DNA from: a virus
Strand: one strand, 5' to 3'
IMG/VR virus record: IMGVR_UViG_3300030116_004830
Location: 1-64,000 of that record
DNA length: 64,000 bases
The translations under genes and the position numbers were made by a program. Within the stretch, counting starts at the first letter, position 1. Every line of letters starts with the position of its first letter. This document shows, piece by piece, positions 22,540 through 53,125 of this stretch. The notes below the pieces were generated by a model. It saw only the letters and a list, made by a program, of their open reading frames with translations. It did no database searches and was not told the origin of the DNA.

Positions 22540-22554
22540 AATATCGAGATTGAA

Positions 22555-22685
22555 AAAAATGACCCCCCATAACGGGGGGCATATTTCAATGAAAAATGTG
22601 AAAATGGGAGGGCGAAATCTCGCCTAGCCCATAAAATTTTTTTTTAAAAATAAAATGGGTGAGATTATTCTCGCCTATATTATCT
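22555..22685. terminator. convergence zone with three GC hairpins and A/T tracts (bidirectional terminator candidate)
   Basis: C6-ATAAC-G6 at 22563-79; ATGGG..GGCGA-AATC-TCGCC..CCCAT at 22604-32; ATGGGTGAGA-TTAT-TCTCGCCTAT at 22655-78; T9 tract between the last two. Confidence 0.55.
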
Positions 22686-22918
22686 TCATTTAAATATCAT
22701 TAATGTCTTACCAAGACATATTTCGCCACTGATTTGAGATTAAAATTCAAAAAATGTTGATTCCAGAAAAAAGAATACTTTTTTCATCCCACTGATAATA
22801 AGCGGAAGCCATGTGCCTATCATAGATAGCACAATAACTGTTATACAAGCAAGTCCACAAGAATCTACAATTGAATGCGAAGAGGAAACAATCACTTCAC
22901 TCTCATTCACTTCTATCA

Positions 22919-29000: not shown

Positions 29001-32000
29001 TCCAGCATACGGATTTCCTCCGTGTTGTATGAATTCTAATACGTTAGACGGATGACTGTATTCTGTATCTATGGTATTATCTACGTTGTAATGCAGTTCA
29101 TCGTTATTATTCAACGCCACTGCGTTTCTTGAAAACAAGGTAATTTGAGTAGCAGTAACGGCTTTGACTTTTCCTACGGGGTTATTAGAGGGGTCATAAA
29201 CAACTGAATTAACAGGGAATTTAGAAACGGCATCAGAACTTCCACCTGAACCATCATCTACTGTTATTGTAAATTGATTTTCTGAACTAAAATTACTTTC
29301 ATTAACTACTACACCACTATTCGCAGGAGTCATTGACCTATTTACTAAATATCTTTTATCTTGCATACTATTAATCGTTAGACCAGTAGAAATTTTACTA
29401 GCAGAAGTAGCGTAAAAGGTTCTAAATGCAGGAGGTAAGGCAATTATTGGATTATAGGCTATTTGCGAACTAGAAGGTAAATTAAAGGCGTAGGTAGTAT
29501 CTCCTCCCGTTGGGTCAGTAGCATTACTAACAGGGTCAATTATTGCGTGGGGACCCATCGCTTGAATGAAGTTTCTAGTGAAACTTCTAAGGAATTTTGG
29601 TGATGGGTCATCAGATGAAGGCTCACTAATATTAGCATCTATGTTGGTATCATCGGGTCCTGCATCTGTTTTTTCATAAGCGGCATTGTGAATTGCTAAT
29701 CCTATTGGTCCGTTTGATGGCCTATTAGGACCATGTGAAGTATGGTTGCTCCCTTCTTCCACTACTCCGTAAGGAATTTGGTAAAACAGATATGGTAATA
29801 CCCCATTAACGGGATGTCTAGTATGAGGAATTAAATCATAAGTAGTATCCTGACTGGCCGCCTCATGATAAGAGGCGTTCCACATCTGTTGAAGCATATG
29901 AGTTTCAGCCTTCTCTGTAGGAGCAGTAAAGGTATTCTTTCCTCCTTTGCCTTTAGTTCGGAATCTAAAGAAAGAATCCCAATAATCTTGTTCGGCTAAG
30001 GTAGAAGTTCCATCGCTTACAACGTAAAGATAACCATGATATAATCCTGCACTACCATCTGATTTTATTATTTTACGACTAGCCCCTTCAAGTTCTATGT
30101 GATGTTCAAAAGTTAAATTTACATTATTAGCAGAAGAACCAGTAAAATTAGCACTAATTACAAACTCAGTAACATCTGTTCCTTCTGTTCCTGTAGTAAT
30201 AGAAACAACAGAAGCGTTATCAGGAAATCCTGATATTGTCCCAGTTGGTCTTACTTCCATCCCAATTCTTACATTCGCAGAAGCATCACATGTAATACTA
30301 GCAGAGCCATTCGTAATATCACAAGTGTTATCAGTAACCGCATCAGCAGTTCTTTTTACCTTTCCGAGATAATGCCCTGTGCATGTAAATATTTGGTCGC
30401 CAGTTTGCAGTAAAGCACTAGGATTATTATCTAAATTAATGATAGTATCACCATCTCCATAAAAAGCACTTAAGAAGTTAGCATCACTTCCCGTTGTTCT
30501 CAAAGGTAATCTTTTGAGAGCCTGATACCTACTGTATTCAAAATTAGGAGTAGTCATTTTTGTTATATCAGAAGGTAATCTTTCAGGGTCTATTAGATTG
30601 AAATGCCAGTCGTAAGTGCAATCAATTAATCTCATCAACCCAAATCTTTTCATTTCAGATGGAGCAATAGAGGCACTACTAATAGGAATAGTAGTATAAT
30701 TATCATCAGTTTCTTCTTCATCTTGTAAAGTTCCTTCATAATGTGCATGAGGTGTATTACTATTTGAAAACGAACTCTTAGATTTTAACAACAAACTGTA
30801 ATCGGAAAAACTTCTACTAATTGCTGTTTCGCTACTAGAATCGTAATTAACAACGCCTGAATATCCAATATGGTGTTTTCTCGACATAGAATCGGGATAC
30901 ATATCGGCGGAAGAAAAGATAAACCATCTTAGTGCTTTAGGGTCAGGCAATTCCCAATGGTCCTTTGCCCTAGTGATTCCATCAAATTTAGGACCAATCC
31001 AAGGCGGATGTAAAACGGTTATTTCCTCATAACCCGTAGTGGTCTTTGCTGAACCTCCAACGAATCCTACACCTGCGGTTCCTATCTTAGTAAAGGGAGG
31101 CTTCGTAGTATCCATTGTAAATTTACCTGCAACATCAGCGCTTAATGCAGATAATTTAAATGTTCTATTATTGTTTTTATCATTTTGTCCACCTATCTTA
31201 ACCCATTGACTACCTAAACTCTCTGTAATAGTATCACTGCTTCCTGCATTAGGCTCAATATAAGATGCCGCACTACCTCCTGCATAAGTAATATCATAAT
31301 CAAAATCGTCAGAGTCGGAGGCTAAGGCTTTCCATTTTCTATATTTTAAAACCGTATGAGGAACAGTGCTATTTTCAGGAGCATCCAAATCTTCTTGCCA
31401 GTCCCCTCCTCTGTGATTATCATGTAATCTAGCCATATATCTAGGATAAATACCTACACGATATTGGGTGTGGTCAGGAGTTACAATAGCAGTTCCATGC
31501 TTATCGAAGTCAGCAAAGTTACTACCCATAACAGGTCTAAAGTCCCTAGATTCAGGAGAAAGATATTCCAAGAAGAAATTTGGTTTTCTAATACCATTAG
31601 TTAACTCAACAGAATCATTGGTATAAGGTTCTAATAAAGTATCAGATGCGCTATCATAAGCCATTCTTGTTATACCCCAAGCAAAATCATTATTGTGATA
31701 ACCATAAGGAAATTTCATTAATTTATTTTTACCATATTTAGCATCAGATATTCTGTATGCAGTAGCATAACCATTCACTCTACCTTTTTCAAAAGAATAA
31801 GTGGTTTTGGGTTTTCCGTCCTTTAATCTCCTACTAACATATGAAAGGTATTTACCCTTCTGCAAACCAAAGTATCTCCATTTGGTATTACCGTATCTAT
31901 CAATTAAATCAGACATTATAGTTAAGGCTGTAGAATGTGGTTGGTATGCTCCTGCGCTACTTTCTGCTACACTGCCATCAGTAACATAATGGAATAAACC

Positions 32001-35000
32001 TGAAGCCCACTTGATAGGTTTACAATTACCATCTGCTTCATTAGGACTAGACAATATAGGATTGGTTAGAGTTAAAACTCCTCCTTGACTTAATCCCTGT
32101 GTATTTAGGAAGTATAGACCTTGAGTAAAATAGTCGGTTAAAACCGTTATTCTAACTGTTTGGCCACTACTATCATTTGAAAATGAACCAAGACCAGAGG
32201 CAGGAATTTTACCACTAGGATGTTTTCTAGTGAATAATATAACTTCGGTATCGTCTTCAAATACATGGCCGATAGAAAACACTCCTAAGTTATCATACAT
32301 TGAATGAGAAACTAGACCTTCAATTTTAATTCGCATACCTGCTTCTAAACTTTGTAAAAAGGCTTGTGCAGTAGCATCACTACTTTTTATTACTGCGGCA
32401 TTAAATTCTGTAGAAGCAAATGTTGTAGCGCTTGCATAATTACTAAAGTGTATTCCTGTTCCTGAAAAATATTGAGCAGGAGAAGCATCACCATAATATT
32501 TCATAATCTTTTCAGTAGCAGTTATAGTTTTGAAAAGGGGTCTATCTAGAGTAAAGGCTACTCTATCATTTAAAATTCCATCACTAGACCCTAAACTAAT
32601 ATCTATAATTTTACCAAACAGTTCTCCGTTTTCATCAAAGATATAATCTCCCTGCTTTAATTCTTCCATCCAACTAGCCTGTGCTATTTGGAATACTCCA
32701 TTATATCCGTTTATTTCAGAACTAGTAAATGCCCCTACTTGTAATAGATATTTATCTCTAGAATCTATCGGGTTATCATCTATTCTAGCGAATACTGCGG
32801 GACAAATTGGAGCCATTTCTATGATAGTTTCTCGTTCATTAGATGATAAATTAATTACATCATATTCTGTTAATGAATTTACAGTGTGAAAATTGACGTA
32901 ATTGATTCCATATTTATTGGTAATTTCATCTGCTAAATTACAATAAAAGGGATAATCGTAATCTACACCATCAGGACTGTTAATGCTATATCCTTTAGCC
33001 AATGGATGAGAACTACTAGAGGTTCCCACTAAGTCAGTTCCATCTTTAAATGGAGCATAATCATCAGTTAGTGTTAATGATTTTCCACCAGTAAATATTA
33101 TGCCTTTATCTTTAGTTCCTAATAACGAATTAACCCTTGTAGAATTAAAAGGATTAGCGGAAAGAGATTTGGCTAAACTAACGGTATTACCTTTGATATA
33201 TTGTCTATAGATGTTAGCGGTAGATGTATCAGCCAAATCTTGTGAATTAGGAAATATTTCACTAGGAGTTTGATAAAAACTACCCATTAGAGTTTCGCCA
33301 TCTTTCAATCTTGTAGGAATACCTTCTTCAAACAAAATCACGGCAGGGGTAAAATCACCATCACTATCAACATCAGTGATTTTATGCACTCTACCTAAAA
33401 ATACACCTTGAGTAGTGTATATCAAATCACCCTGTTGTATAGTTAATGTTGTGCCTTGGGTAGTAGTAGATGAAGAGATTTGATTAACTTGAATTTCAGT
33501 TGTTCCAACAGGATAAGTTCCATCATCAGTAAAGGTTGTGCCGTGAGTAGTATGGTTATGAGTAGTAAGTTCGACTTGACCAAATGCCGCCATTCTTTCT
33601 ACTGGACCGACAGTAGAGTAAACAATGTCTTCTGTAAATTTAAAATCTTTATTTACAATAGGCCCTAACAAATCAGAAACAGTATTTCTACCTCTAATTT
33701 TTAATTTAAACATTCCATCTTCTATTACCTGCTCTACACTTTCAACAGTCCCTTTGAAAACGGTTCTTTCAATATCAATGGTTCCTGAGAAATAATCTAG
33801 ATAACTTAGAACTCCTCTTGCATAAAAGTTGGTAGAAGAATCAGACCTATTCAAATCATAACGATAAGCAGAACCGCCGCCATCTAATCCTGAATTTATG
33901 GAATAACCGTAAAGGGAAACATTTGAAATTTTATCTAAGTAAGGAGTAACATCTGTTCGATTGAAATTTTCTAAAAATCTTTCATCCTTAAGATGAGTTT
34001 GTAGTTTCAAGAAACTATTGTGCTTGTCTCCATATTCTACTTTAATACGATGACCTGTAACTGGGCCTCCCTTTAGGACCAAGTGAATATCATTATTTCT
34101 TGAGTGGGATGCCTTTTCTAATTCTATTTCTCCTACATTTAAGGTAGGTCTAGTGTTAGCCCCTGCCCCTGTAATACTATCATTTGTAGGATTAAGAGTT
34201 TCAATTAAGGTTTCATAATCTCTAACATTTCTATTCCAATTATTATCAGCAACGGAATGATTACCTGATAAAATATAATTAGTAATTTTAGAATCAATTG
34301 GAATATTTGTAAGTAAATTGTCTGCTAAGAACGAATATTTTCTTCTAAATGCTTTTGCGCTAAAAGAAGGAACGGTAGTCATAGCAGTAACGCTAGTTAG
34401 AACGTATTCTGTATCCGTAGCCTTTCTCCAACTACGAACTCCCATTGCTTGAGTAGTCCCATTATTAGTTCCTGATGCTTTATTATCAATCTTATCAATA
34501 TTAAAATGATAAAGAGTTCCATCTATGTTTGTAGTAATGGTATCATTAAGCGGGTCATATCTACTACCTGTAGAGGTGCTACTATTAGGAATAACAGAAG
34601 ATAAAAGAAATTTCATATCTTTTTGATTACCTAAATTATTAGCCTGTATTGTATCTACTCCTGTTATAGGCACTGAATACTCTACATCAGCAATTGGAAA
34701 TGTTCTTTCTTTACCTACTGTTTCACTTTCAATAATATGGTTAATTAGAATTGAATCTCCTTCTTTTATTTTCTTAGCAAGAATCTTTTGAGTATCAGCA
34801 AATACAATATCTACATAACCACCAGTAGAAGTTACTGATTCATATTCTATCATCTCCATAGCATTAGGAATAATTGTATTTGTAAGTGGAGAATCACAAT
34901 AATGCATGTATCGTGAATAACCCGTTGTAGTAGAATAAAGAGCATCATCTGTTGTTCTGTTAGCCATTCTAAAAGAATCCTTAAATTCGTTATTTGAATC

Positions 35001-36713
35001 TACTAATGAGTAAATCTTGTTATGGTCTAAATCTACAGAACTAGCAAGAGTAATAATTTTCTTAGAAGTAGAGGCCACATTGTCTTGTGCGGTAAAATCT
35101 CCTGTATCTAAAGTAATAGTATTAGAAATTGATTCTGTAGCACTATCTATACAATAAACATCATCATTTGCCGATGTTGCTGAACCCAATACCGCTATTC
35201 TCGTATCTCTCAATATACCATCTATTCCCCAGTTAGTTCCTTCGGTTCCATCTAAGTCGGTAGTAAACGCATCTGCGGCCCCAGTAATAGTATCGTTAGA
35301 ACCCCCATTATCGTTCAATCTAACTGCGGTATTAGAATAACTTCGATAATTTACTGCCGCAGGATTGTCTGCCTTATACATCATATCTACTAAGGTAGCC
35401 TCCATAGTAAATGGCCCATAATCTACAATATGTGCTTCATACTCTTGGTCGGTAACAAAGGTAGAATAAGTGTAGATATGGGCTGAACCAGTCCACGATG
35501 AACTTCTAAGAATATATCTCGTAGCAGGTTCTAACCTGTCTTTTCCATTTAAGAAATAAAAGAATGGTCGAGATACATGGGTGTTAATATGATGTCTTAT
35601 ACTAGAATCTGTAGCCTGTAAACCATAAGCACAAGCAACTAATGTTTGATTATCTGAATCTATCTTAGGTAGATTAGAATCTAAAGAAGAAAAGACCGCA
35701 AACTTAGTATCTTTAGGAATATCTACACCTAATGAAGGACTAAATTCTATTCTATCTCCAAAAACATCATCCTCTAATATCTCAGTAATTTTAGCAAAAT
35801 GATGTTTATTTCCATCGTCAGAATAAACTAACACCCATAAATGGTCAATGTTTTGTTTTAAGAATACTTCATCATTAGCGTAACTATCAGGGGTAGTATT
35901 ATTGAATCCTCTAACAACAGTTAAATCATTAGAACTAATATTGGTGATAAGCATTTCTTCATTTTTAACAATAATAATATCGTTAATCGAAAGACCACTT
36001 GCACTAGTTACTGCAACAATAGTATCAGTAGCAGTTTCACTTCCACTTAATGTAGTTAAATGTGAAATAAATCGCTGTCCTGTTTGGGACAAAAAATCAA
36101 ACGTCTTCAATTGGTTTCCTGAAGTAACTGATAGATTCGATAAATGGTCACTAATGGTAGTAGAATTAGGATATACTCGATTTACTGCTGAATAAGTTTG
36201 AGTGGTAAAAGATAAACCGATTGTTCCATTACCTGTTGGTGCATTTGATAGAACTAAACTAGTGCCATCTGTTACTGAACTCACTGTAGTATTATCAGGT
36301 ATTATTCCACCAGTAGGTCCTACGGACATTCCTGCAACTATACCTGTCGTATCCCCACTACTTATCGTAGTATTTCCACTGCTTACTGTAAAGGTTGTAA
36401 CTACTTGATGTGATTGATTGATTCCTTTAGTTACATTAGCCATTGTAACATTATCTGCTTTGTGTATTTCATAACTATTAATTGATTCATCAGCAGTAAA
36501 CGCAGTAAAGTTAGCAAACGCTTCTCCCATCGTTCCTCTAGTAAGTAGAGGATTTAGAGGGGTTTTGTAAAGCGCCTTATCGAATATATTGTCTAGATAA
36601 TTAGCCGAAGAAGAAGTTGATTTTCCACTTACTACCGTTTGAGCGCTAGTGCTTTCGACATTCCCTTTACCCATAGCAAAGACACCAGTAAAATTACCCA
36701 TGCCTTTGGTCAT
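26082..36713 (-). CDS. giant 3543-aa tail-tip/baseplate-hub-like protein
   Basis: Hub-like segments VFKGTVESV...LKIRGR and SIDKFGKK...AKGLL...KAGDIVTL, many repeated beta modules, downstream of tape measure. Confidence 0.7.
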   Translation of the reverse strand: MTKGMGNFTGVFAMGKGNVESTSAQTVVSGKSTSSSANYLDNIFDKALYKTPLNPLLTRGTMGEAFANFTAFTADESINSYEIHKADNVTMANVTKGINQSHQVVTTFTVSSGNTTISSGDTTGIVAGMSVGPTGGIIPDNTTVSSVTDGTSLVLSNAPTGNGTIGLSFTTQTYSAVNRVYPNSTTISDHLSNLSVTSGNQLKTFDFLSQTGQRFISHLTTLSGSETATDTIVAVTSASGLSINDIIIVKNEEMLITNISSNDLTVVRGFNNTTPDSYANDEVFLKQNIDHLWVLVYSDDGNKHHFAKITEILEDDVFGDRIEFSPSLGVDIPKDTKFAVFSSLDSNLPKIDSDNQTLVACAYGLQATDSSIRHHINTHVSRPFFYFLNGKDRLEPATRYILRSSSWTGSAHIYTYSTFVTDQEYEAHIVDYGPFTMEATLVDMMYKADNPAAVNYRSYSNTAVRLNDNGGSNDTITGAADAFTTDLDGTEGTNWGIDGILRDTRIAVLGSATSANDDVYCIDSATESISNTITLDTGDFTAQDNVASTSKKIITLASSVDLDHNKIYSLVDSNNEFKDSFRMANRTTDDALYSTTTGYSRYMHYCDSPLTNTIIPNAMEMIEYESVTSTGGYVDIVFADTQKILAKKIKEGDSILINHIIESETVGKERTFPIADVEYSVPITGVDTIQANNLGNQKDMKFLLSSVIPNSSTSTGSRYDPLNDTITTNIDGTLYHFNIDKIDNKASGTNNGTTQAMGVRSWRKATDTEYVLTSVTAMTTVPSFSAKAFRRKYSFLADNLLTNIPIDSKITNYILSGNHSVADNNWNRNVRDYETLIETLNPTNDSITGAGANTRPTLNVGEIELEKASHSRNNDIHLVLKGGPVTGHRIKVEYGDKHNSFLKLQTHLKDERFLENFNRTDVTPYLDKISNVSLYGYSINSGLDGGGSAYRYDLNRSDSSTNFYARGVLSYLDYFSGTIDIERTVFKGTVESVEQVIEDGMFKLKIRGRNTVSDLLGPIVNKDFKFTEDIVYSTVGPVERMAAFGQVELTTHNHTTHGTTFTDDGTYPVGTTEIQVNQISSSTTTQGTTLTIQQGDLIYTTQGVFLGRVHKITDVDSDGDFTPAVILFEEGIPTRLKDGETLMGSFYQTPSEIFPNSQDLADTSTANIYRQYIKGNTVSLAKSLSANPFNSTRVNSLLGTKDKGIIFTGGKSLTLTDDYAPFKDGTDLVGTSSSSHPLAKGYSINSPDGVDYDYPFYCNLADEITNKYGINYVNFHTVNSLTEYDVINLSSNERETIIEMAPICPAVFARIDDNPIDSRDKYLLQVGAFTSSEINGYNGVFQIAQASWMEELKQGDYIFDENGELFGKIIDISLGSSDGILNDRVAFTLDRPLFKTITATEKIMKYYGDASPAQYFSGTGIHFSNYASATTFASTEFNAAVIKSSDATAQAFLQSLEAGMRIKIEGLVSHSMYDNLGVFSIGHVFEDDTEVILFTRKHPSGKIPASGLGSFSNDSSGQTVRITVLTDYFTQGLYFLNTQGLSQGGVLTLTNPILSSPNEADGNCKPIKWASGLFHYVTDGSVAESSAGAYQPHSTALTIMSDLIDRYGNTKWRYFGLQKGKYLSYVSRRLKDGKPKTTYSFEKGRVNGYATAYRISDAKYGKNKLMKFPYGYHNNDFAWGITRMAYDSASDTLLEPYTNDSVELTNGIRKPNFFLEYLSPESRDFRPVMGSNFADFDKHGTAIVTPDHTQYRVGIYPRYMARLHDNHRGGDWQEDLDAPENSTVPHTVLKYRKWKALASDSDDFDYDITYAGGSAASYIEPNAGSSDTITESLGSQWVKIGGQNDKNNNRTFKLSALSADVAGKFTMDTTKPPFTKIGTAGVGFVGGSAKTTTGYEEITVLHPPWIGPKFDGITRAKDHWELPDPKALRWFIFSSADMYPDSMSRKHHIGYSGVVNYDSSSETAISRSFSDYSLLLKSKSSFSNSNTPHAHYEGTLQDEEETDDNYTTIPISSASIAPSEMKRFGLMRLIDCTYDWHFNLIDPERLPSDITKMTTPNFEYSRYQALKRLPLRTTGSDANFLSAFYGDGDTIINLDNNPSALLQTGDQIFTCTGHYLGKVKRTADAVTDNTCDITNGSASITCDASANVRIGMEVRPTGTISGFPDNASVVSITTGTEGTDVTEFVISANFTGSSANNVNLTFEHHIELEGASRKIIKSDGSAGLYHGYLYVVSDGTSTLAEQDYWDSFFRFRTKGKGGKNTFTAPTEKAETHMLQQMWNASYHEAASQDTTYDLIPHTRHPVNGVLPYLFYQIPYGVVEEGSNHTSHGPNRPSNGPIGLAIHNAAYEKTDAGPDDTNIDANISEPSSDDPSPKFLRSFTRNFIQAMGPHAIIDPVSNATDPTGGDTTYAFNLPSSSQIAYNPIIALPPAFRTFYATSASKISTGLTINSMQDKRYLVNRSMTPANSGVVVNESNFSSENQFTITVDDGSGGSSDAVSKFPVNSVVYDPSNNPVGKVKAVTATQITLFSRNAVALNNNDELHYNVDNTIDTEYSHPSNVLEFIQHGGNPYAGCSVISLAGYTVEDSLPTNLPVGARTLIRNLQQGITKNFGHSRPRLSAPATSDANKSEAIYGDGAGNIDTASYFNEKSNEFNFLTTLGNWKSGFANFNSDLTQNANQFSYVGQGTGYIANGVFGVFHPELFLGGICKSTLNTTGGDIDANERQEGVFTFRSINQQSRDNVSNTNKDLGVLRILSSPSPNDSSSDRNFNHNDKNSWLNFVDLTGMYLVANFGTEEGKKTSRRNFAPFSGELTVNTYGSVLADEAYDIPAAYISPLFGTDGERSTKIRVIEEDFFLSNCAYSNSNGVVTYTGDEDIRQLLRAGMLVKGHGIASFVINSVDSASQFTLSNTPTAATQSNTLGFRGSGGGSTGLDDCMVDPDHIIYVHEHRRNATGKEVAHELLIDNIPHNKSGEVQFFNNYRVMRPAETCLWPNSPNEISIGKLSGSTTKMPQSDSMYGYVPSLTNINSSNNFTGPDEEQILSNYDGTIGDNEPPMSMYLAVDMDARHSKFKEIGTVAVNDKSSTVTSSSLFTSSVIQEGDVIRLLHGNYFVKSIESTSSLTIAGQYRGTNHSGTGYVYNNTYTVLRNYSHLFNPSGNRNTFKNGEAYNMLLTDGVNKQKISMGVNTNYYDETPLCKLSIGKIEQPLLGLVSFGEIFTIKSNVPVNIEDVTSARIGSTLVIGEEVENIVNNVLSDEGISYDISDNREYPYYISPNFQGVDLFNATNFAAKYKEKEIRVDEKGVSLIKQSNDLDFRDVTLSYENNDLKIISVTRNKSTFDLYNEIIVYGNGIKSIKRNRKSIDKFGKKTLEEVNMELVSQDDVDNRAKGLLKAHSEGDDRFTVRMSITGIEFVKAGDIVTLDFPSEGVPKDTYKVYEIRRELKGLIELEVGTYRKDLANRFAELSMLNKSNSASIRGSQFTSTTAPLDFFDSVKLKELSLVIRRIGLADTNAFTLGFQTLTSRKLDFGTTMGPQETVTEIIREEDLT

Positions 36714-42874: not shown

Positions 42875-43123
42875 TCACTCGGAAGTTTCTGAACTCTCTT
42901 TTTCCTCCGATGATTCTTGGGCTTCAATCTCCGCCTTTCTTTGTTCTTTAGCGGCCTGTCTTTCAGCCTCTTCTGCCTTGGCTTTTTCTTCTTCTGCTTT
43001 AGCCTGTGCTTTAGCCGCTTTTTCCTGAGCCTTTTTCTCGGCTCTTGTTTTCTTAGCCTCTTCTTCTTCGGCTAATCTTTGAGCATACAATCTCTTTTTC
43101 TCATATTTATCCATTCTAATCAC
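42875..43123 (-). CDS. E/K/A-rich helical low-complexity protein
   Basis: Composition; GGGTGA RBS. Confidence 0.6.
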   Translation of the reverse strand: MIRMDKYEKKRLYAQRLAEEEEAKKTRAEKKAQEKAAKAQAKAEEEKAKAEEAERQAAKEQRKAEIEAQESSEEKESSETSE

Positions 43124-44736
43124 CCTTGTAGAACCCAGTGAGTTTTAACTTCACACTTACTCATTGTTCTCGGCATAACAGTGCCTTCAATTGTAATTGG
43201 TCCCTTATCATCAGGAACAGTAAGAGTAGCAGTGCTTAGGAAATAATCTTGGAAGTTTAGCAAGATTTGTTCTCCGCTATCTTTATCGAATTGTAGAACA
43301 ATCTCATTTGTTGAACCCAAATCTTCAGCATTATTCAACAATTCTTGGAATAACTTATCATCAGTAACTAGAGCAGTAAAGGCAATCTCATATGTCCTTT
43401 GAGCAGGAATAGCATTCTTAATCGCTTTACTAGAAACACCAACATATCTTTTATCTTGTAGATTGTTATTAATCGTTAAAGAGAGATTGGTAATCTTTAG
43501 GAAGGTTTGACCAAAGCAACTAAACAATCCACTAGAGAAAAAGAACGGTTCTAATCCGCCATTTGCTCCTGTTCCTGATGGGTAGTTGAATAGAGATGTG
43601 TCTGTCCCTACATTATTTCTAGGAGTGTAAACTTGTGTTGTAGTCAAATCATTAATGTAATCAACCGTTCTAGTGTTAAGGTCCATCGTCATTTTAACTT
43701 CTTCATTCTCGTTAGCAGTTAGAGTAAAAGTGTTTACTCGATTACCTCTAGCAATTCTAACAAGGGTTTCTGTTTCTGTAGCGACTCCTTGAGTAGCAGT
43801 TACATTTGATGTTTTAGCAATACTGTGTTCTAAAGAGAAAGAAGGCAAATCAGTTCCATTAGCCTCTGAGAATTCATAGGTAATAGGGTTTTGAATTACA
43901 CCTGCCGCAGTAAAAGTAGGAACAGTTAGTTTGTTCAAATTACTATGAGTATCTATACTATGAATAACTGGGGGTAATAATTGAGTATCTTCTCTAGACC
44001 TGTAAAAAATTGGCCCTTGATTAAGATGAGCAGTTTCAAAAGAACCACCGTGAGCAGTAGAAGAAGTATCTCCTGTATCAATGTAAACTTGGTCAGTTGT
44101 TCCCGACTCTGCTAAGAACAAAGATTGAGGAACAGTAGAACCCGAAGCAGAAGTGTATTTTGCACCAGTGCATTTACCTAATGCATAATACAACCATGTT
44201 CCTTGATTAGCAATTAATCCAATATTACCTCCACTTGCGGTTTCAATTCCTTTGTATTGATAACTAAAGTTTCTACTACCTCCAAGTGAAAGATTCATCT
44301 GTTTCATCTCTATCTCAGTATTTGGGAAAGTAGCAGTTTCTACAAGGCCCATCCAGTTATCAGCGTTTAACTTTAAAGAATTTGAACCTATTCTAGAAGC
44401 AGGACAAGGTGTTCCATAAGGATGAATATGGAAAAAGTCAGAATCATCAGAAGCAAAAGTAATAGAGGGAACTGGACTTACTGTAAATGTTGTAGTAGTA
44501 TTGCTAGTAATAGTATGCATAGTAGATGCATTGCTATCGTCAGCATTAAAAATTTCTACTGTGCATCCCTTATACAAATCAGGAACTAATTCCATCGTTG
44601 TAAAAGGAGCCAACGGAGCAATTATACCCGTTGCTTCTGTTGATGCGCTTTCATCTATAAATCCACTTAGCGTCAATTCTGGAACAAACGCTATGTTTGC
44701 TTGGCTTCCTACAAATATATCTTCATTTACGGTCAT
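43120..44736 (-). CDS. major tail tube protein
   Basis: LPSFSLE, VNTFTLT, NLSLTINNNL and RTYEIAF tube-like motifs; position. Confidence 0.75.
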   Translation of the reverse strand: MTVNEDIFVGSQANIAFVPELTLSGFIDESASTEATGIIAPLAPFTTMELVPDLYKGCTVEIFNADDSNASTMHTITSNTTTTFTVSPVPSITFASDDSDFFHIHPYGTPCPASRIGSNSLKLNADNWMGLVETATFPNTEIEMKQMNLSLGGSRNFSYQYKGIETASGGNIGLIANQGTWLYYALGKCTGAKYTSASGSTVPQSLFLAESGTTDQVYIDTGDTSSTAHGGSFETAHLNQGPIFYRSREDTQLLPPVIHSIDTHSNLNKLTVPTFTAAGVIQNPITYEFSEANGTDLPSFSLEHSIAKTSNVTATQGVATETETLVRIARGNRVNTFTLTANENEEVKMTMDLNTRTVDYINDLTTTQVYTPRNNVGTDTSLFNYPSGTGANGGLEPFFFSSGLFSCFGQTFLKITNLSLTINNNLQDKRYVGVSSKAIKNAIPAQRTYEIAFTALVTDDKLFQELLNNAEDLGSTNEIVLQFDKDSGEQILLNFQDYFLSTATLTVPDDKGPITIEGTVMPRTMSKCEVKTHWVLQG

Positions 44737-47954: not shown

Positions 47955-48668
47955 TCACGCAAGCCACTTAGCCCAAGCCGCACCCTTTTGAATCATCTTA
48001 CCTAATCCTAATCCACTATTAGGAGGAGAGTAGGTCGCTTGACCAGTAGCAGGGTCTATCCAGTATGGATTATTGTAATTATCATAACCGCTAGGAGGAA
48101 CAGGATAACCACTTTGATTGGTCATTGCACCTTGTCCCATAGCCATGTTTTGATTCATGTTCCCCATCATTGGTTGACCTTGAATATTAGCAGGAGTATT
48201 GTTTTGCATTTGTGGTTGTCCTCCCATTGCTGGTTGTCCTCCCATTACTGGTTGCCCTCCTCCATCTCCAAAACCTTGAGCCTCTAAATACTGATTCTTT
48301 GCCATTTGTCTTTGATATACAACCTCTTGATTAATTGAAGATTGTAAAATCTGTTGAATATCTAATTGAATATTTTCTTCTGTAATTCTTTCATACTCAG
48401 CAAGACATGCCTTTTCTAGAGTAATATCTCCTTGAGTGGCTTCTAATTTAAAATGCAATTTAGTTAGCATCCTACTCATTACTCTTTCAATAACATCTTC
48501 CAATAGTTTCTCATAAGAGGTAAAGAAGGCTTCACCATGATAAAGTAAAAACTCTTCAACATGGTTATCTTGTAGAGTCAAAAGGTTATTCATAGCCTTG
48601 AAACTCTTATCGTTGTTTTGGCTCATTTGGCTCGCTAAAGCACTGTTGCTTGTTCCTAGTAATCCCAT
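47955..48668 (-). CDS. helical protein with Q/G/M/P/Y-rich low-complexity region and amphipathic C-terminus
   Basis: GGQPVMGGQPAMGGQPQM repeats; ends GLGKMIQKGAAWAKWLA. Confidence 0.75.
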   Translation of the reverse strand: MGLLGTSNSALASQMSQNNDKSFKAMNNLLTLQDNHVEEFLLYHGEAFFTSYEKLLEDVIERVMSRMLTKLHFKLEATQGDITLEKACLAEYERITEENIQLDIQQILQSSINQEVVYQRQMAKNQYLEAQGFGDGGGQPVMGGQPAMGGQPQMQNNTPANIQGQPMMGNMNQNMAMGQGAMTNQSGYPVPPSGYDNYNNPYWIDPATGQATYSPPNSGLGLGKMIQKGAAWAKWLA

Positions 48669-49291
48669 TATTCATCACCTATTAATTCATCAATCTGTCC
48701 CATCTTACCCTTTAGTTCCATTAGTAGTATCATTAGTTTTTCTTCAGCAGTAGTCGTATCCGCCTTCGGGGGTTGTATTTCCCATCCCTTAGAGGTTAAT
48801 GAAATTATATCCTTCTCCGTTAAAGCAGTAAGCGGCCCCCTACTTATTACATTCGGCATTCTTGCTTTGGGAATATACTTTTTGAACTCTAATCCATGTT
48901 TTTCAGCAATCAATTGTTGCTCTAACATTTCCATCTGTTTGAACATAGAAGAATGTTTAGGACAATAAGTTCCTCTTAATGGTCTACCCTTATGAACATG
49001 AGATAATGGAATAGGAGGTCTAAGTGTATCTCCTGCGTCCCACACATGATGAACTCCACAAACTACACATCTATCTTTAATGTTAAATTTATAACCGTAT
49101 TTTACCAACAATAGGCTTTTCTTTTCAGGCATTAATACCTTGGTTATCTCTTTCATTTGTTTCTTAGTATCAAGAGATTTATATTCAAAATTAATAATGG
49201 GTCCTGCGGCCCTAGCAGAGTTCTTCATTCTTAATGGGTTAATCATTGTATTATCATTACCGATTATATTCGGTGTATATATTGCCGTCAT
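48668..49291 (-). CDS. zinc-finger protein with C-terminal coiled coil
   Basis: CVVC...CPKH. Confidence 0.7.
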   Translation of the reverse strand: MTAIYTPNIIGNDNTMINPLRMKNSARAAGPIINFEYKSLDTKKQMKEITKVLMPEKKSLLLVKYGYKFNIKDRCVVCGVHHVWDAGDTLRPPIPLSHVHKGRPLRGTYCPKHSSMFKQMEMLEQQLIAEKHGLEFKKYIPKARMPNVISRGPLTALTEKDIISLTSKGWEIQPPKADTTTAEEKLMILLMELKGKMGQIDELIGDE

Positions 49292-49295
49292 TTTA

Positions 49296-49973
49296 TCAAT
49301 ACTCCTTTATCATAGACATTATTCCTCGGTAAACCATTTCGGGGTCTGACTTGGCAGATACGATGTATTTGAAACATGGTATTCCCTTATCTTGTAACCG
49401 TTGCATACCGAGCCTGAACGGTTCAAAAATTGGATGTTTCTCGATAGGTCCGTTGTGTTCATATTTATCCTTCCATAAATCATACTTGTTAGCCCATATG
49501 CCTACTGCGATTGGAAAGTCCTTGTCCTTCTTTCTTTTAGTTTTACCCTTTCCTAATCTCCAAAAATCATCACAAATCGTATCTACTAAAAATTGCCAAG
49601 AGAGTTGATGTTCTAAATTATAGGCTTCTGATAAATGGCGGTCATCAATCATGAATATAAGATATTTTACCTTCCTTTTCATCATATCGTTTTTCCACGC
49701 ATCCCAGTAATATGATTGACCTCCTACATCAGCAGTTTTGATTGTCCTACTATCTTTATCTATTTTTACTGTTTTTCTAGAGGCACGATGTAAACCTTCT
49801 GTTCTATTCTGAATAACTGGAACTTCTCCTCTAGTTCTTAACTGTCGATGAAGGGTTGTTTTACCCGCCTTACTAGCACCATACACTCCAAAATTTATAG
49901 CATGAATTCTTTGGTAAAGGCTCATAGCCGCTTCTGCCGCTAAAATTGAAAAGCCTGTTAAAAGCGTAGCCAT
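49296..49973 (-). CDS. Arf/Sar1-like small GTPase (Ras superfamily)
   Basis: G1 GASKAGKTT, G2 RTEG, G3 DVGGQ, LIFMID, G4 ANKYD, G5 SAK; N-terminal hydrophobic/amphipathic helix. Confidence 0.9.
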   Translation of the reverse strand: MATLLTGFSILAAEAAMSLYQRIHAINFGVYGASKAGKTTLHRQLRTRGEVPVIQNRTEGLHRASRKTVKIDKDSRTIKTADVGGQSYYWDAWKNDMMKRKVKYLIFMIDDRHLSEAYNLEHQLSWQFLVDTICDDFWRLGKGKTKRKKDKDFPIAVGIWANKYDLWKDKYEHNGPIEKHPIFEPFRLGMQRLQDKGIPCFKYIVSAKSDPEMVYRGIMSMIKEY

Positions 49974-49976: not shown

Positions 49977-50195
49977 TTAGTCCCACCCAATTAACTCCTT
50001 AAAACCATCAATTGCCAACCCAAGTAAATCAATACCGAATGAACCCATGATGTTACCGACCAAAAAGAAAAACACCGTAGAGCCAACGCCCCATAACCAG
50101 TATCTTACTTTTAGAAAGAAAATATCGGCAGAATGCGCTCTAGATAAATCGTATGCTAACGACTGTTCATCTACTCCTAAGAGCCTATCTAACAT
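49977..50195 (-). CDS. small membrane protein
   Basis: Hydrophobic YWLWGVGSTVFFFLVGNIMG; AAGGTGA RBS. Confidence 0.75.
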   Translation of the reverse strand: MLDRLLGVDEQSLAYDLSRAHSADIFFLKVRYWLWGVGSTVFFFLVGNIMGSFGIDLLGLAIDGFKELIGWD

Positions 50196-50207: not shown

Positions 50208-50588
50208 TCATTCTAGTGCTTGAAGGAATGTTTCAGATACCTCATCATAGGGGGATTGTGGGCCACTGTAGTAGGTTAGATTTTTACCTTTCATGGATTC
50301 TCTAATCTTCTGCTTTTGTTGCTCATCTCTTTGTTTCTTTTCCCAATACATATCTATCTTTCGATTCAATAACCACATTTCAAATCTATCATTCACTGCT
50401 AAATCAAACAGTGCTTTCTGTAGCATTATTACGCCTACAGTAATCAGTCCAAACAATATTGCATGTGTAACCGCAGTAAACGGTAATTGGCCACCATATG
50501 CAGAATAGAAATAAACATTCATTCCGCACATTGCGCCTACATACATTATCGTCATTATTAGCCTAGTATCTTTATTGATAGCCGCCAT
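50208..50588 (-). CDS. two-TM membrane protein with coiled-coil tail
   Basis: Two hydrophobic helices followed by a charged helix; start moved to MAAINK. Confidence 0.75.
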   Translation of the reverse strand: MAAINKDTRLIMTIMYVGAMCGMNVYFYSAYGGQLPFTAVTHAILFGLITVGVIMLQKALFDLAVNDRFEMWLLNRKIDMYWEKKQRDEQQKQKIRESMKGKNLTYYSGPQSPYDEVSETFLQALE

Positions 50589-50598
50589 TATATCCCTC

Positions 50599-50931
50599 TC
50601 AATTAAATTCAACGGTGAATACTTGACTGGTTCCTGCCGCAACAGTAACATCTGCATATAGTCCGTTTCTGAAAACTACACCATGCATATCTGCTTCCGC
50701 AGAACCATTAATCAAACTGTTAGGGTCCATTCCTACAATCAATTGGCCAATAAGGTTACTATTTGCTTTCGCCCCTGATGAAGCCACATCATACAGTTTG
50801 ATGTAAGCAACGTCACCTGCACCAGTTACCATTCCGTGAACGCTAATCAATTTGCCCTGTCCAATCGTTATTTGAGTATCAGCAGTAATAGCATTACTAC
50901 TCCTACATCCACCTATTCCAGTCATCCGCAT
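50599..50931 (-). CDS. small beta-sandwich virion protein
   Basis: GKLISVHG...IKLYD...GVVFRNGLY pattern; near capsid gene. Confidence 0.6.
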   Translation of the reverse strand: MRMTGIGGCRSSNAITADTQITIGQGKLISVHGMVTGAGDVAYIKLYDVASSGAKANSNLIGQLIVGMDPNSLINGSAEADMHGVVFRNGLYADVTVAAGTSQVFTVEFN

Positions 50932-51763: not shown

Positions 51764-53125
51764 TCACTTCAAGTTGGTGATTTTTCCTTGTCCCTTAAAG
51801 AAGGTGCAACCAGTTTCACCCATTGTTCTGTAAAGACCTCTGTTACCTAGGACTCCAACACCGAATGGGTTTCCATGAGAAATACCGTCCTCAAAGTATT
51901 GGGTAGGCTTCATTGTAGCAAACCATAGATGGTCAGTGTCTAGCAATAGCATGTCGGATAGACCGCTTGTTGCCGCACCTGTCTTTGGCATGTCCTTACA
52001 AGGAATTAGAGGAATATCGTAGTATGTTGCAACTCTGAATCCAACTTCTGCACCCTTTACGCCCTTTACACCGTTATGGGTTGGAATAACTTCCTTAGCG
52101 TCCATGAATCTTTCTTGGCTCTGTAGCAAGTCAGACAATGCTTGAATGGTATCGTATCCAGTTAGGATAACCTTTGGAGTTCCACCATTCAATCTTAGGT
52201 TCTGAATAACATCGTTAATGATGCTTAGAGTTAGAACACGACCCGCAGTAGCGTAAGATGCACCGTAGTTAACAACCGAATCCATGAAAGATGCGCCTGT
52301 TGCTCTTGAGGTGTTACCGTAAAGAGTTGTTACATCAGCGTCTAGGTCAGCAATAGCAGATGAAACGCTTGAAAGCCTATCAAGTTCACCACCGCTATCG
52401 GACAACTCATCGTTACTGCTAACAATCTTCAATAGAGAAGTATAGTTTTCACGAATTCTTCCGCTTGAAGTATCTGCTCCAAGTGTATCGTAGTTCTCAA
52501 GAGGCATTACTAGCATAACCGACTGAGATTCTGCGTGGAATTTACCCATATCCTCACGAATGAGTTTACGAATATCTCCAACACCATCATCAATCTTAGC
52601 CATTTCAGCCGCAAGTTCGGAGTAATCGAACATATGAGCGACAATCTTTGGGTTCATGTATAGAGTGGTGTATTCAGGAGCAAGGGCTTCCAACTGTGTG
52701 CTATCCAATGCTTCGTTTTCACCGACACCACCGAGCAAATCTCCATCAGGAGTTTCTGAACCTTGAACACCACTTCCAGTAGTTGCACCTACAGCGAATG
52801 CCGCCGCACTTCCACCTTGAGGTCTGTTAATCATAACTCTCCAGCCGCTTGAAGTGTATGGCCTCTTAGGTAGAATAGATAGTGGGTTGATTTCTTGGTT
52901 AATCATTGACCAAACTTTCTGACCGTAAACCATGTTGTAAAGTGCAGTTAGGTTTGTTGCCGCAGTTCCGTTAAGAGTTAGTGCAGTGTCGGACGAACCA
53001 GTGAATCCACTGTTGATTCCGCCAACAATACCTGCCGCCTTCAAAAGGTTGTTTCCACCTACGTTACCATAGGTTGCTCTTTCCAAATCTTGAATTGTGT
53101 TAATGTATTTCGTCATTTTTTTCAT
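51764..53125 (-). CDS. major capsid protein (HK97 fold)
   Basis: Follows prohead protease; size; P-domain-like TYYDIPLIP...MLLLDTD; high-expression codon style. Confidence 0.85.
   Translation of the reverse strand: MKKMTKYINTIQDLERATYGNVGGNNLLKAAGIVGGINSGFTGSSDTALTLNGTAATNLTALYNMVYGQKVWSMINQEINPLSILPKRPYTSSGWRVMINRPQGGSAAAFAVGATTGSGVQGSETPDGDLLGGVGENEALDSTQLEALAPEYTTLYMNPKIVAHMFDYSELAAEMAKIDDGVGDIRKLIREDMGKFHAESQSVMLVMPLENYDTLGADTSSGRIRENYTSLLKIVSSNDELSDSGGELDRLSSVSSAIADLDADVTTLYGNTSRATGASFMDSVVNYGASYATAGRVLTLSIINDVIQNLRLNGGTPKVILTGYDTIQALSDLLQSQERFMDAKEVIPTHNGVKGVKGAEVGFRVATYYDIPLIPCKDMPKTGAATSGLSDMLLLDTDHLWFATMKPTQYFEDGISHGNPFGVGVLGNRGLYRTMGETGCTFFKGQGKITNLK

What the first reader, a model, noticed from the sequence alone, without database searches (positions are those of the whole stretch)
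49296..49973. Eukaryote-like Arf-family signature GTPase encoded by an archaeal tailed virus
All five G boxes are intact, and the resemblance is specifically to Arf1. Matches (this protein vs Arf1): AGKTTL..L...GE vs AGKTTILYKLKLGE; DVGGQ, identical and including the catalytic Gln; LIFMID vs LIFVVD; ANKYD vs ANKQD; MVYRGI vs GLYEGL. It has a 24-aa N-terminal hydrophobic helix but no Gly2, so it is Sar1-like rather than myristoylated. A basic insert (GKGKTKRKKDK) could bind anionic lipids. Arf-like GTPases are regarded as eukaryotic/Asgard signature proteins, so a copy in a probable Poseidoniales virus matters for the family's origin.
Basis: partly seen in the sequence, partly recalled or inferred. 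Interest (0 to 1): 0.85.

Follow-up and report, generated by a model that had tools for sequence, protein, structure and literature searches.

The report
Magrovirus Arf-like GTPase membrane cassette
A tailed virus of the abundant ocean archaea (Marine Group II) encodes a real, strongly conserved small GTP switch whose predicted fold is closest to Arf proteins; its sequence forms a separate, virus-only family, and it always sits beside small membrane proteins, which makes it an untested candidate for how these viruses act on the host membrane.

Summary
The ORF (49296-49973, minus strand, 225 aa) is real, intact and under strong purifying selection (omega about 0.11). It has all five G boxes, an N-terminal hydrophobic helix and a conserved basic insert. 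The window is a magrovirus (87.6-kb record).

The gene occurs on about 500 viral contigs, plus more than 80 with a 30%-identical subfamily. It always lies in a tight cassette: two small membrane proteins, the GTPase, a Cys/His (zinc-type) protein and a Gln/Gly/Met-rich protein.

Arf likeness is only partly supported.
- For: the 37 best structural matches are all Arf-family proteins; the six Arf references are the six best BLASTP hits of 40; the switch II pattern DxGG..W is Arf/Sar/G-alpha type.
- Against: Pfam Arf is below cut-off, and that model also fires in E. coli. Equal-depth profile comparison does not prefer Arf to Rab, and Arf-Rab is far closer than virus-Arf. Switch I to G3 spacing is 24, not 19. 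The 'catalytic' Gln varies (Q/E/D/H). Rooted trees are unresolved.

It is a distinct viral family with an Arf-like fold, not a textbook Arf, and it does not bear on Arf origins as it stands. No homologue was found in the cellular genomes searched. This scan has already met the same cassette in at least 44 other magrovirus genomes, with the same reading. Function is untested.

The parts
49296..49973 (-). Gene for the 225-aa small GTPase (P0001); the stop codon is at 49296-49298
   Evidence: ORF and translation. AF2 model with pLDDT 90 and pTM 0.86 shows a Ras-like G-domain fold. omega is about 0.11.
49905..49970 (-). N-terminal hydrophobic helix, aa 2-23 (G7 and F8 invariant and E14 nearly invariant in the close family)
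   Evidence: Predicted helix 2-23. Mean hydrophobicity 0.69-0.76, hydrophobic moment 0.17-0.21, KD19 1.49. Conservation.
49857..49880 (-). G1 / P-loop, GASKAGKT (aa 32-39)
   Evidence: G32, G37, K38, T39 and T40 are invariant in the close family.
49800..49802 (-). Switch I Thr58, in the invariant R57-T58-x-G60
   Evidence: HMMER aligns it to the PTxG Thr of Arl8.
49695..49730 (-). G3 / switch II, DVGGQ (82-86) through Trp93, which lies 7 residues after the catalytic position
   Evidence: D82 and G85 are invariant over all subfamilies. Trp at +7 occurs in 166/166 viral sequences and 7/7 Arf references, but in 0/105 Rab/Ran/Rho references.
49518..49559 (-). Basic insert RLGKGKTKRKKDKD (aa 139-152, net +6), between helix 3 and strand 5; predicted as a small hairpin
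49479..49490 (-). G4, NKYD (aa 162-165)
   Evidence: N162 and K163 invariant and D165 nearly invariant over all subfamilies. NK[YF]D in 81/81 close loci.
49350..49358 (-). G5, SAK (aa 206-208)
   Evidence: SAK in 81/81 close loci.
49977..50195 (-). o72: 72-aa small membrane protein, 3 nt upstream of the GTPase gene
   Evidence: TM-like segment at aa 37-62. Present in 79/80 close loci. Positional equivalents exist in L156 (81 aa) and L323 (74 aa).
50208..50657 (-). o149: 149-aa membrane protein with a basic, Gln-rich tail
   Evidence: TM-like segment at aa 61-84. Present in 77/80 close loci. Positional equivalent in L156 (186 aa, TM plus coiled-coil-like).
48668..49291 (-). o207: 207-aa Cys/His (probable zinc-binding) protein, 4 nt downstream of the GTPase gene
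   Evidence: C75, C110 and H113 are invariant and C78 is nearly invariant (C-x2-C ... C-x2-H) in both subfamilies. Present in 79/80 close loci. No Pfam or PHROG family. The AF2 model is poor, pLDDT 58.6.
47955..48668 (-). o237: 237-aa Gln/Gly/Met/Asn-rich protein; its start overlaps the o207 stop by 1 nt
   Evidence: Present in 69/80 close loci. Compositional equivalents follow the GTPase in L156 (209 aa) and L323 (251 aa). Composition.

Best explanation
The gene encodes a functional small GTPase that belongs to a distinct family found only in viruses. Its fold is closest to GTP-bound Arf/Arl proteins. I infer that it works as a membrane-attached GTP switch. The uniformly hydrophobic N-terminal helix, helped by the strongly basic surface and insert, would hold it at the host cytoplasmic membrane, probably packed against the two small membrane proteins encoded just upstream. 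The downstream Cys/His protein and Gln/Gly/Met-rich protein would be its regulator and/or effector. The five genes form one tightly packed, translationally coupled unit inside the late (virion) gene block, so the switch would act late in infection. The most likely job is remodelling or breaching the host membrane for virion release. Shown here: the gene is real, conserved and under selection; the G-domain fold and motifs; the virus-only distribution; the conserved cassette. Inferred only: GTP binding and hydrolysis, membrane attachment, contacts between partners, timing, and the egress role.
For: Gene and family: the ORF is intact. There are 335 clusters and 499 viral contigs of the close family, and 81 contigs of a roughly 30%-identical subfamily. 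omega has a median of 0.11. The G1, G3 and G4 residues are conserved across all subfamilies.
Sequence: the Arf family leads the PDB lists of four separately profiled subfamilies, only narrowly ahead of KRas for the window's own subfamily. The six Arf references are the six best BLASTP hits among 40 references. DxGG plus Trp at +7 is present in 166/166 viral and 7/7 Arf sequences against 0/105 Rab/Ran/Rho.
Membrane link: the N-terminal helix covers residues 2-23 with mean hydrophobicity about 0.7. There is no C-terminal Cys motif. Net charge is +13 and the insert is +6. TM segments are predicted in o72 and o149.
Cassette: gaps between genes are 12, 3, 4 and -1 nt, with GGAG/GGTGA-like sites upstream. 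The immediate neighbours are present in 77-79 of 80 loci. The same order is kept at about 30% GTPase identity in L156, and the core (TM protein, GTPase, Q/G/M-rich protein beside head genes) is kept in L323.
Virus-only: only 2 loci were found in 185,579 species genomes, both mis-binned magrovirus contigs. Nothing beyond P-loop level was found in 300 genomes of one bacterial phylum. The exhaustive single-sequence search over 1.84 billion representatives returned 63 hits; the sources of the hits I looked up gave no organism, and the subfamilies that could be traced lie on viral contigs.
Precedent: the Arf-like ArvA drives vesicle formation in Euryarchaeota from an operon that includes a Zn-ribbon protein (PMC10927574).
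Against: No experiment or expression datum bears on function. No RNA run was listed as holding the stretch. Membrane attachment is predicted from sequence only: KD19 is 1.49, just under the usual TM threshold, and the hydrophobic moment is too low for a classic amphipathic helix. The cassette lies between the capsid and neck/tail genes, a position that fits an assembly role equally well. Known lysis cassettes of tailed viruses usually lie outside the head-tail block (general knowledge). The partner proteins have no recognisable family, and o207 did not fold confidently, so 'regulator or effector' rests on gene order alone. The catalytic-position residue varies among Q, E, D and H, so the hydrolysis mechanism may differ from Arf.
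Confidence: 0.5

Rival explanations
1. Virion-assembly factor. The membrane-anchored GTPase and its two membrane partners would form a membrane-bound platform or chaperone that starts or checks head assembly or head-tail joining, as phage T4 starts prohead assembly on the inner membrane. It would not act on the membrane itself.
For: The cassette lies directly between the major capsid gene (51764-53125) and the neck/tail genes, with the tail tube at 43120-44736. In the distant L323 lineage it again lies beside prohead-protease-like and capsid-like genes. It is co-oriented and tightly packed with the morphogenesis genes. The T4 analogy is general knowledge.
Against: In the divergent subfamily (L156) the cassette is preceded by a 1664-aa protein, not by the capsid gene. 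No known tailed-virus assembly pathway uses a Ras-like GTPase. No PHROG family matches the GTPase.
Confidence: 0.2
2. A true member of the Arf family (the Asgard ArfR / eukaryotic Arf lineage), captured by a virus and since evolved fast, and therefore informative about where Arf came from.
For: The top 37 structural matches are all Arf family. Asgard ArfR (8OUN) is the best PDB sequence hit for subfamilies A1 and A4. Outlying relatives pass the Pfam Arf cut-off over the whole model: P0160 27.2 bits, P0179 25.5 and P0169 26.8. DxGG..W and the N-terminal helix are present. The best tree under a site-heterogeneous model joins Arf with the viral clade.
Against: That join has support of only 18, and it flips to viral plus outgroup (support 62) under LG+G4. 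Equal-depth hhalign does not prefer Arf to Rab for A1 or A4, and Arf-Rab (about 150) is far closer than virus-Arf (44-88). The Thr-to-Asp spacing is 24 or 32-34 against an invariant 19 in Arf. There is no Trp before the G3 Asp, G5 is SAK, and the Gln varies. The Pfam Arf model is non-specific at this score level. The literature reports ArfR as almost confined to Asgard archaea, whereas the presumed host is a euryarchaeon.
Confidence: 0.12
3. A descendant of a prokaryotic small GTPase that is only superficially Arf-like, such as host ArvA, archaeal ArfL, Rup, or the uncharacterised bacterial 'G domain / Arf-like' proteins. It would have been taken from a host and diverged beyond recognition. 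This concerns origin, and is compatible with the membrane-switch function.
For: ArvA also has Pfam Arf as its nearest family and has an N-terminal helix (PMC10927574). The nearest non-viral look-alikes in the ESM Atlas are bacterial G-domain clusters of 200-250 aa in which 17-67% of members carry Pfam Arf. Magroviruses are known to have taken genes from archaea and from bacteria (PMC5434244).
Against: The exhaustive single-sequence search returned only 63 hits, and none of those I could trace is cellular. The cassette neighbours do not match ArvB (DUF2073) or ArvC (DUF2072). I could not fetch ArvA, ArfL or Rup sequences, so there was no direct test.
Confidence: 0.2
4. A host-takeover or superinfection-exclusion factor that changes the host envelope or signalling, rather than an egress device.
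For: Predicted membrane location and the presence of small membrane partners. Giant viruses encode Ras-superfamily GTPases, which are thought to manipulate host trafficking (BFVD hits; function from general knowledge).
Against: The position inside the late structural block and the tight coupling to it fit late expression better than early takeover. The gene is universally kept in the same place across lineages.
Confidence: 0.08

Closest known systems
Arf family small GTPases (eukaryotic Arf1, Arf6, Arl1, Arl3, Arl8; Asgard ArfR such as GerdArfR1, PDB 8OUN/8OUM; bioRxiv 10.1101/2024.02.28.582541)
   Different: Identity is only 16-25%. Sequence matches cover only G1 to beta4. Pfam Arf is below cut-off. 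Switch I to G3 spacing is 24 against 19. There is no Trp before the G3 Asp, G5 is SAK rather than CAT-like, and the Gln is replaced by Glu, Asp or His in many members. A basic hairpin is inserted between helix 3 and strand 5. The N-terminal helix is hydrophobic rather than amphipathic. Profile distance to Arf is larger than the Arf-Rab distance.
ArvA-ArvB-ArvC (OapABC), the archaeal vesiculating GTPase operon of Haloferax volcanii and other Euryarchaeota and DPANN (PMC10927574)
   Same: Both are small, Arf-like GTPases with an N-terminal hydrophobic or amphipathic helix, encoded in an operon with a zinc-type protein, in (or infecting) Euryarchaeota. For ArvA, membrane deformation is the demonstrated function.
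   Different: No detectable homology of the viral neighbours to DUF2073 or DUF2072. The viral cassette adds two small membrane proteins and a Gln/Gly/Met-rich protein. Homology of the GTPase itself to ArvA could not be tested here.
SRbeta and Sar1
   Different: Pfam SRPRB scores only 15 bits. There is no SRalpha or COPII context. The gene is viral.
Ras-superfamily GTPases of giant viruses (for example the mimivirus Rab, PDB 5XC5)
   Different: Those are recent copies of eukaryotic Rab, Ran, Ras or Arf, scoring 200 bits or more on their Pfam models, in viruses of eukaryotes. This family has no close cellular counterpart and occurs in tailed viruses of archaea.

Membership tests
Ras-like (extended Ras) small GTPase superfamily | G1 GxxxxGK[ST], switch I Thr, G3 DxxG, G4 NKxD and G5 SA-type motifs, in order, on a roughly 170-aa alpha/beta G domain | tested here: met
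Arf family (Arf/Arl/Sar1, including Asgard ArfR) | Passes the curated Pfam PF00025 threshold, with Arf as the specific best family | tested here: inconclusive
   The score is 21.9 bits against a cut-off of 22.3; Arf is the top family, with Ras at 12.4 bits. Outlying relatives pass at 25.5-27.2 bits. However, the model also passes its cut-off in 12 of 14 control prokaryote genomes and rings in 13, E. coli among them. True Rabs also hit it at E<1e-10.
Arf family (Arf/Arl/Sar1, including Asgard ArfR) | N-terminal amphipathic helix that binds membrane in the GTP state | tested here: inconclusive
   A helix at 2-23 is predicted. It is uniformly hydrophobic, with mean hydrophobicity 0.69-0.76 and moment 0.17-0.21; the family median moment is 0.34, and 33 of 157 members are TM-like. 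Nucleotide dependence cannot be tested here.
Arf family (Arf/Arl/Sar1, including Asgard ArfR) | Interswitch toggle (two-residue register shift of beta2-beta3 between the GDP and GTP states) | not testable with these tools
   This needs structures of both nucleotide states. Only one AF2 state was obtained, and it resembles the GTP forms.
Arf family (Arf/Arl/Sar1, including Asgard ArfR) | Arf-type switch I to G3 spacing (Thr to Asp = 19) and Trp directly before the G3 Asp (WDxGGQ) | tested here: not met
   The spacing is 24 in the close family and 32-34 in the divergent subfamily, against 19 in 7/7 Arf references. The residue before the Asp is Ala, Ser or Thr, never Trp.
Arf family (Arf/Arl/Sar1, including Asgard ArfR) | Switch II signature DxGG[QH] followed by Trp at +7 | tested here: met
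   Present in 166/166 viral sequences and 7/7 Arf references, and in 0/105 Rab/Ran/Rho references. That Sar1 and G-alpha share this signature is from memory.
Arf family (Arf/Arl/Sar1, including Asgard ArfR) | Conserved catalytic Gln in G3 | tested here: not met
   It is Gln in this protein. Across the family it is Glu in 23 of 32 representatives, Q70/E11 in the nearest loci, Q/E/D in the divergent subfamily, and His or Glu in the outliers.
Arf family (Arf/Arl/Sar1, including Asgard ArfR) | Fold closer to Arf than to other small GTPase families | tested here: met
Arf family (Arf/Arl/Sar1, including Asgard ArfR) | Phylogenetic placement inside or sister to Arf/ArfR | tested here: inconclusive
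   The viral clade is monophyletic (SH-aLRT 97) and separate from Arf (99) and from Ras-like (97). Rooted with Era/Der, LG+G4 gives viral plus outgroup (62), while LG+C20 gives Arf plus viral (18).
Arf family (Arf/Arl/Sar1, including Asgard ArfR) | Profile-profile similarity higher to Arf than to Rab at equal depth | tested here: not met
   A1: 44.5 against Arf, and mean 48.9 (37.6-56.4) against Rab. A4: 58.2 against 62.1. Only the outlying groups prefer Arf: A5 68.5 against 48.7, and A6 81.1 against 63.3. Arf against Rab is about 150.
Rab/Ras/Rho/Ran | DTAGQ in G3 and C-terminal Cys lipidation motif (Rab, Ras, Rho) | tested here: not met
   G3 is DxGG, never DTAG. The C terminus is ...KEY, with no Cys. 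The references end in CC, CxC or CaaX-like motifs.
ArvA/ArvB/ArvC vesiculation operon | GTPase followed by a DUF2073 protein (ArvB) and a DUF2072 Zn-ribbon protein (ArvC) | tested here: not met
   Pfam scans of o207, o237, o72, o149 and the L156 equivalents at E<=0.1 gave no DUF2072 or DUF2073 hit. The definitions come from PMC10927574.
ArvA/ArvB/ArvC vesiculation operon | GTPase orthologous to ArvA (HVO_3014) | not tested
   No ArvA sequence could be obtained. Archaeal genomes could not be reached with the genome search from a virus record.
MglA | MglA-type G domain with a partner MglB (roadblock) gene | tested here: inconclusive
   No roadblock or longin-type Pfam hit was found in the cassette proteins. 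No MglA sequence was available for direct comparison.
Magroviruses (viruses of Marine Group II archaea, order Magrovirales) | Tailed-virus structural module plus a near-complete archaeal-type replisome, chaperonin, and a second ligase inside the structural module | tested here: met
   The window carries chaperonin, ligase, RFC, split PolB, HK97-type capsid, prohead protease, portal, tail tube and a ligase domain in the structural block. This matches the description in PMC5434244, where split DNAP is a group B1 trait. The host assignment is the literature's and was not tested here.

The most novel reading that the evidence does not exclude
Magroviruses, among the most abundant viruses in the surface ocean, carry a self-contained membrane machine driven by a GTP switch: an Arf-fold GTPase, two small membrane proteins, a zinc protein and a low-complexity protein. 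This machine would remodel or open the host membrane to release virions. That would be a new kind of egress system for tailed viruses, and a case of Arf-style, GTP-controlled membrane action outside eukaryotes and Asgard archaea.
Probability: 0.25. Interest if true: 0.85.

Novelty: new variant of a known kind. Interest (0 to 1): 0.6.

Why it matters
Small Ras/Arf-type GTPases are essentially unknown in tailed viruses of bacteria and archaea: there is no PHROG family, no GenBank phage match, and the viral structure library holds only giant-virus examples. Here such a GTPase is a conserved hallmark gene of one of the ocean's most abundant virus groups, and it is fixed in a cassette with membrane proteins. 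How tailed archaeal viruses leave their hosts is largely unknown (review PMC10791045), and the three magrovirus papers I checked do not mention this gene. The cassette gives a concrete, testable candidate.

The family has an Arf-like fold but is not demonstrably part of the Arf lineage, and Arf-like GTPases are already known in Euryarchaeota (ArvA).

Tried and rejected
As a result, the contexts of several metagenomic relatives and GTPase-o207 binding were not tested.
- The genome search cannot reach archaeal (host or Asgard) genomes from a virus record. Host ArvA, ArfL and ArfR comparisons could therefore not be made.
- The search for related loci with the broad alignment A3 had no conserved stretch to search with.
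- The bridge search with P0160 returned only 4 proteins and no named cellular GTPase.
- tblastn against GenBank phage records found no match.
- P0184 (group A6) was not found on viral contigs, so its origin is unknown.
- RNA: no RNA holder was listed. Laying four metatranscriptome runs at 80% identity gave only short pieces from relatives: contigs of about 150 nt over o207 and o149, and pieces of at most 52 nt over the GTPase. This says nothing usable about expression.
- o207 was folded from an 18-sequence alignment. The model had pLDDT 58.6 and pTM 0.42, too poor for a fold search.
- Bacterial-type promoter and terminator scans were at or below the shuffled expectation, and the consensus does not apply to archaea.
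- The idea that the Arg before switch I Thr58 is an MglA- or G-alpha-style built-in arginine finger rests on memory only. The Arg is not conserved in the outlying groups, so I make no claim.
- An unrooted tree of three clades cannot show sisterhood, and outgroup rooting depended on the model.
Full report
**What is there.** The minus-strand ORF at 49296-49973 encodes a 225-aa protein, P0001. Its motifs are a P-loop GASKAGKT (aa 32-39), a switch I Thr58 inside an invariant R-T-x-G, G3 DVGGQ (82-86), G4 NKYD (162-165) and G5 SAK (206-208). AlphaFold2, run on a 43-sequence alignment without templates, gives a confident G-domain model (pLDDT 90, pTM 0.86). The model has a helix over residues 2-23 and a small extra hairpin that carries the basic insert RLGKGKTKRKKDKD between helix 3 and strand 5. 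Its literal motif comparisons also hold against real Arf genes that I fetched from giant-virus contigs and verified at 214 bits on Pfam Arf.

**The genome.** The window is part of an 87,650-bp IMG/VR virus record judged 96% complete. It carries a Cpn60/TCP1-type chaperonin, an ATP-dependent ligase, an RFC-like clamp loader and a split family-B polymerase on the plus strand. On the minus strand it carries portal, prohead protease, an HK97/SU10-type capsid protein, a tail tube protein and a second ligase domain embedded in the structural block. This matches the published description of magroviruses, including the odd second ligase and the split polymerase of group B1 (PMC5434244). The host assignment to Marine Group II archaea is the literature's, not mine.

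**A conserved, virus-only family.**
- A word-indexed search found 335 clusters at E<=1e-3, all from marine metagenomes at 60-95% identity, on contigs of up to 96 kb.
- An exhaustive phmmer over 1.84 billion representatives found only 63 hits. The full-length divergent ones are 194-277 aa at 27-41% identity. None carries an informative name or an organism in its source.
- The viral contig collection holds 499 contigs with the close family and 81 with a roughly 30%-identical subfamily, on contigs of up to 118 kb.
- Among 185,579 species genomes, only two loci matched. Both lie in one 'Maricaulis' MAG, on contigs that carry magrovirus capsid and protease genes, so they are mis-binned virus. The same MAG holds a third copy.
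- In 300 further genomes of that bacterial phylum, only partial P-loop-level matches appeared.
- Pairwise dN/dS against 24 relatives has a median of 0.11; the least saturated pair gives 0.05.

**The cassette.** The gene is one of five packed with gaps of 12, 3, 4 and -1 nt, each preceded by a GGAG/GGTGA-like site. In order they are:
- o149, with one strong TM segment;
- o72, a small TM protein;
- the GTPase;
- o207, whose invariant C-x2-C ... C-x2-H set suggests zinc binding;
- o237, which is Gln/Gly/Met/Asn-rich.

The immediate neighbours are present in 77-79 of 80 related loci. The same order survives in the divergent subfamily: in L156 it runs TM/coiled-coil protein, small TM protein, GTPase, a protein with the same RGTYCP[EK]H motif, then a Q/G/M-rich protein. 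In a still more distant viral lineage (L323), a small TM protein, the GTPase and a Q/G/M-rich protein sit beside prohead-protease-like and capsid-like genes. None of the partners has a Pfam or PHROG family.

**Is it an Arf? Evidence for.**
- Sequence profiles. Profiles of four subfamilies, built separately, each put the Arf family first against PDB sequences. A1: ArfR 8OUN 0.0048 and Arl8 0.006, but KRas 0.007. A4: 8OUN 3.9e-7, with no Ras or Rab below 0.01. A5: nearly all Arf/Arl. A6: Arf1 3e-8, then Arl8, ArfR and Sar1. 8OUN and 8OUM are GerdArfR1.
- Single-sequence comparison. In BLASTP of P0001 against 40 references, the six Arf references are the six best hits.
- Switch II. The pattern DxGG followed by Trp at +7 is present in 166/166 viral sequences and 7/7 Arf references, but in 0/105 Rab/Ran/Rho references.
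- Architecture. The roughly 30-residue N-terminal extension and the lack of a C-terminal Cys motif fit Arf/Sar/SRbeta architecture.

**Is it an Arf? Evidence against.**
- Pfam Arf scores 21.9 bits, under the 22.3 cut-off, and covers only residues 30-113.
- The control search shows that the same model passes its cut-off in 12 of 14 well-known prokaryote genomes and rings in 13, E. coli among them. True Rabs hit it at E<1e-10. The Pfam hit alone therefore means little.
- With reference depth equalised (six sequences each), hhalign gives A1 44.5 against Arf, and 37.6-56.4 against eight Rab samples. A4 gives 58.2 against 53.8-67.4. Only the small outlying groups A5 and A6 prefer Arf. Arf against Rab scores about 150, so the viral family is much further from Arf than Rab is.
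- The switch I Thr to G3 Asp spacing is 24 (32-34 in the divergent subfamily), against an invariant 19 in the Arf references.
- There is no Trp before the G3 Asp, and G5 is SAK.
- The 'catalytic' Gln is Glu in 23 of 32 cluster representatives, and Q, E, D or H elsewhere.
- The N-terminal helix has high mean hydrophobicity (about 0.7) but a low hydrophobic moment (about 0.2), with KD19 of 1.49. It looks more like a weak anchor than a Sar1-type amphipathic helix.

**Phylogeny.** With Arf, Rab, Ran and Rho references, the viral sequences, including groups A5 and A6, form one clade (SH-aLRT 97) separate from Arf (99) and from the Ras-like group (97). A three-way split cannot show sisterhood, so I rooted the tree with Era/Der G domains. 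Under LG+G4 the outgroup joins the viral clade (support 62). Under LG+C20+F+G4 the best tree joins Arf with the viral clade (support 18). The question is unresolved and depends on the model. ArfR, ArfL, Rup, MglA and ArvA sequences could not be obtained.

**Verdict on identity.** This is a distinct, fast-evolving, virus-only family of the extended Ras class. Its fold is Arf-like and its switch II is of the Arf/Sar/G-alpha type. It is not shown to be a member of the Arf family, and two features of Arf proper were tested and not met.

The framing also needs updating. ArvA, an Arf-like GTPase that drives vesicle formation, is widespread in Euryarchaeota and DPANN and is encoded with a Zn-ribbon protein (PMC10927574). 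The viral neighbours show no homology to ArvB or ArvC.

**Most likely mechanism (inferred).** I propose a membrane-attached GTP switch. It would be held at the host membrane by the hydrophobic N-terminal helix and the basic surface (net charge +13), probably together with the two small membrane proteins. The Cys/His and Q/G/M-rich proteins would act as regulator and/or effector. It would work late in infection, most plausibly in membrane remodelling or virion release. I put this at about 0.5, with egress specifically at about 0.25-0.3. The main rival is a membrane-bound role in head assembly, which the position beside capsid genes fits equally well.

**Literature and earlier notes.** The three magrovirus papers I searched do not mention a GTPase, and a full-text search for magrovirus plus GTPase found nothing. 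This scan, however, has already met the same cassette in at least 44 other magrovirus genomes (50 findings). The follow-up readings there match mine: a very divergent Arf-like GTPase in a membrane cassette, with function untested. The notes listed to me mention none of the following, which I add here: the equal-depth profile comparison, the motif-spacing and Trp+7 tests against fetched references, the specificity control on Pfam Arf, the dense structural ranking, and the model-dependent rooted trees.

Noticed in passing
window 26082-36713 (-): A single ORF of 3543 aa lies in the tail region, followed by ORFs of 832, 264 and 747 aa. It is presumably a giant tail, fibre or tape-measure-like protein. 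It was not annotated here.
   Followed up: no
window 12822-14513 and 14940-15869 (+): The family-B DNA polymerase is split into two ORFs with a gap of about 430 nt. The first carries the exonuclease and the start of the polymerase domain, and the second carries Pfam DNA_pol_B positions 223-359. The magrovirus paper reports split DNAP for group B1.
   Followed up: partly
window 54676-57159 (-): An 827-aa ORF inside the structural block carries an ATP-dependent DNA ligase domain only at aa 244-428. The flanking roughly 240 and 400 residues have no family. The second, structural-module ligase is a known magrovirus oddity.
   Followed up: partly
L002, L003, L311-L313 (GenBank MAG 'Maricaulis sp.' NZMJ01; handle G001): A bacterial MAG holds three separate magrovirus-type contigs with the GTPase cassette, which looks like mis-binned viral DNA. 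The copy on G001:C111 belongs to the divergent subfamily and has one in-frame TGA.
   Followed up: partly
L156 112-5106 (+): In the divergent subfamily the cassette is preceded not by the capsid gene but by a 1664-aa protein with many CxxC pairs and no annotation.
   Followed up: no
window about 22000-23000: GC skew and coding strand switch here. Plus-strand replication genes are on the left and minus-strand structural genes on the right, so the two modules converge.
   Followed up: no
Pfam PF00025 control: In six-frame genome searches, the Pfam Arf model exceeds its gathering score in 12 of 14 control prokaryote genomes and rings in 13, E. coli among them. Borderline Arf hits in prokaryotic or viral proteins are therefore not specific.
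   Followed up: yes
window 50599-50931 and 50208-50657 (-): The ORFs o110 and o149 overlap by 59 nt as called from the first start codons. The true start of o149 may be an internal Met.
   Followed up: no
P0169, P0173, P0179, P0184 (group A6): A small group of metagenomic proteins is related to the viral family at E 1e-4 to 1e-6. These have an Arf-type PTxG switch I and the strongest Arf1 profile hit (3e-8), but they were not found on viral contigs. Their origin, cellular or viral, is unknown, and they could be a bridge to cellular relatives.
   Followed up: partly
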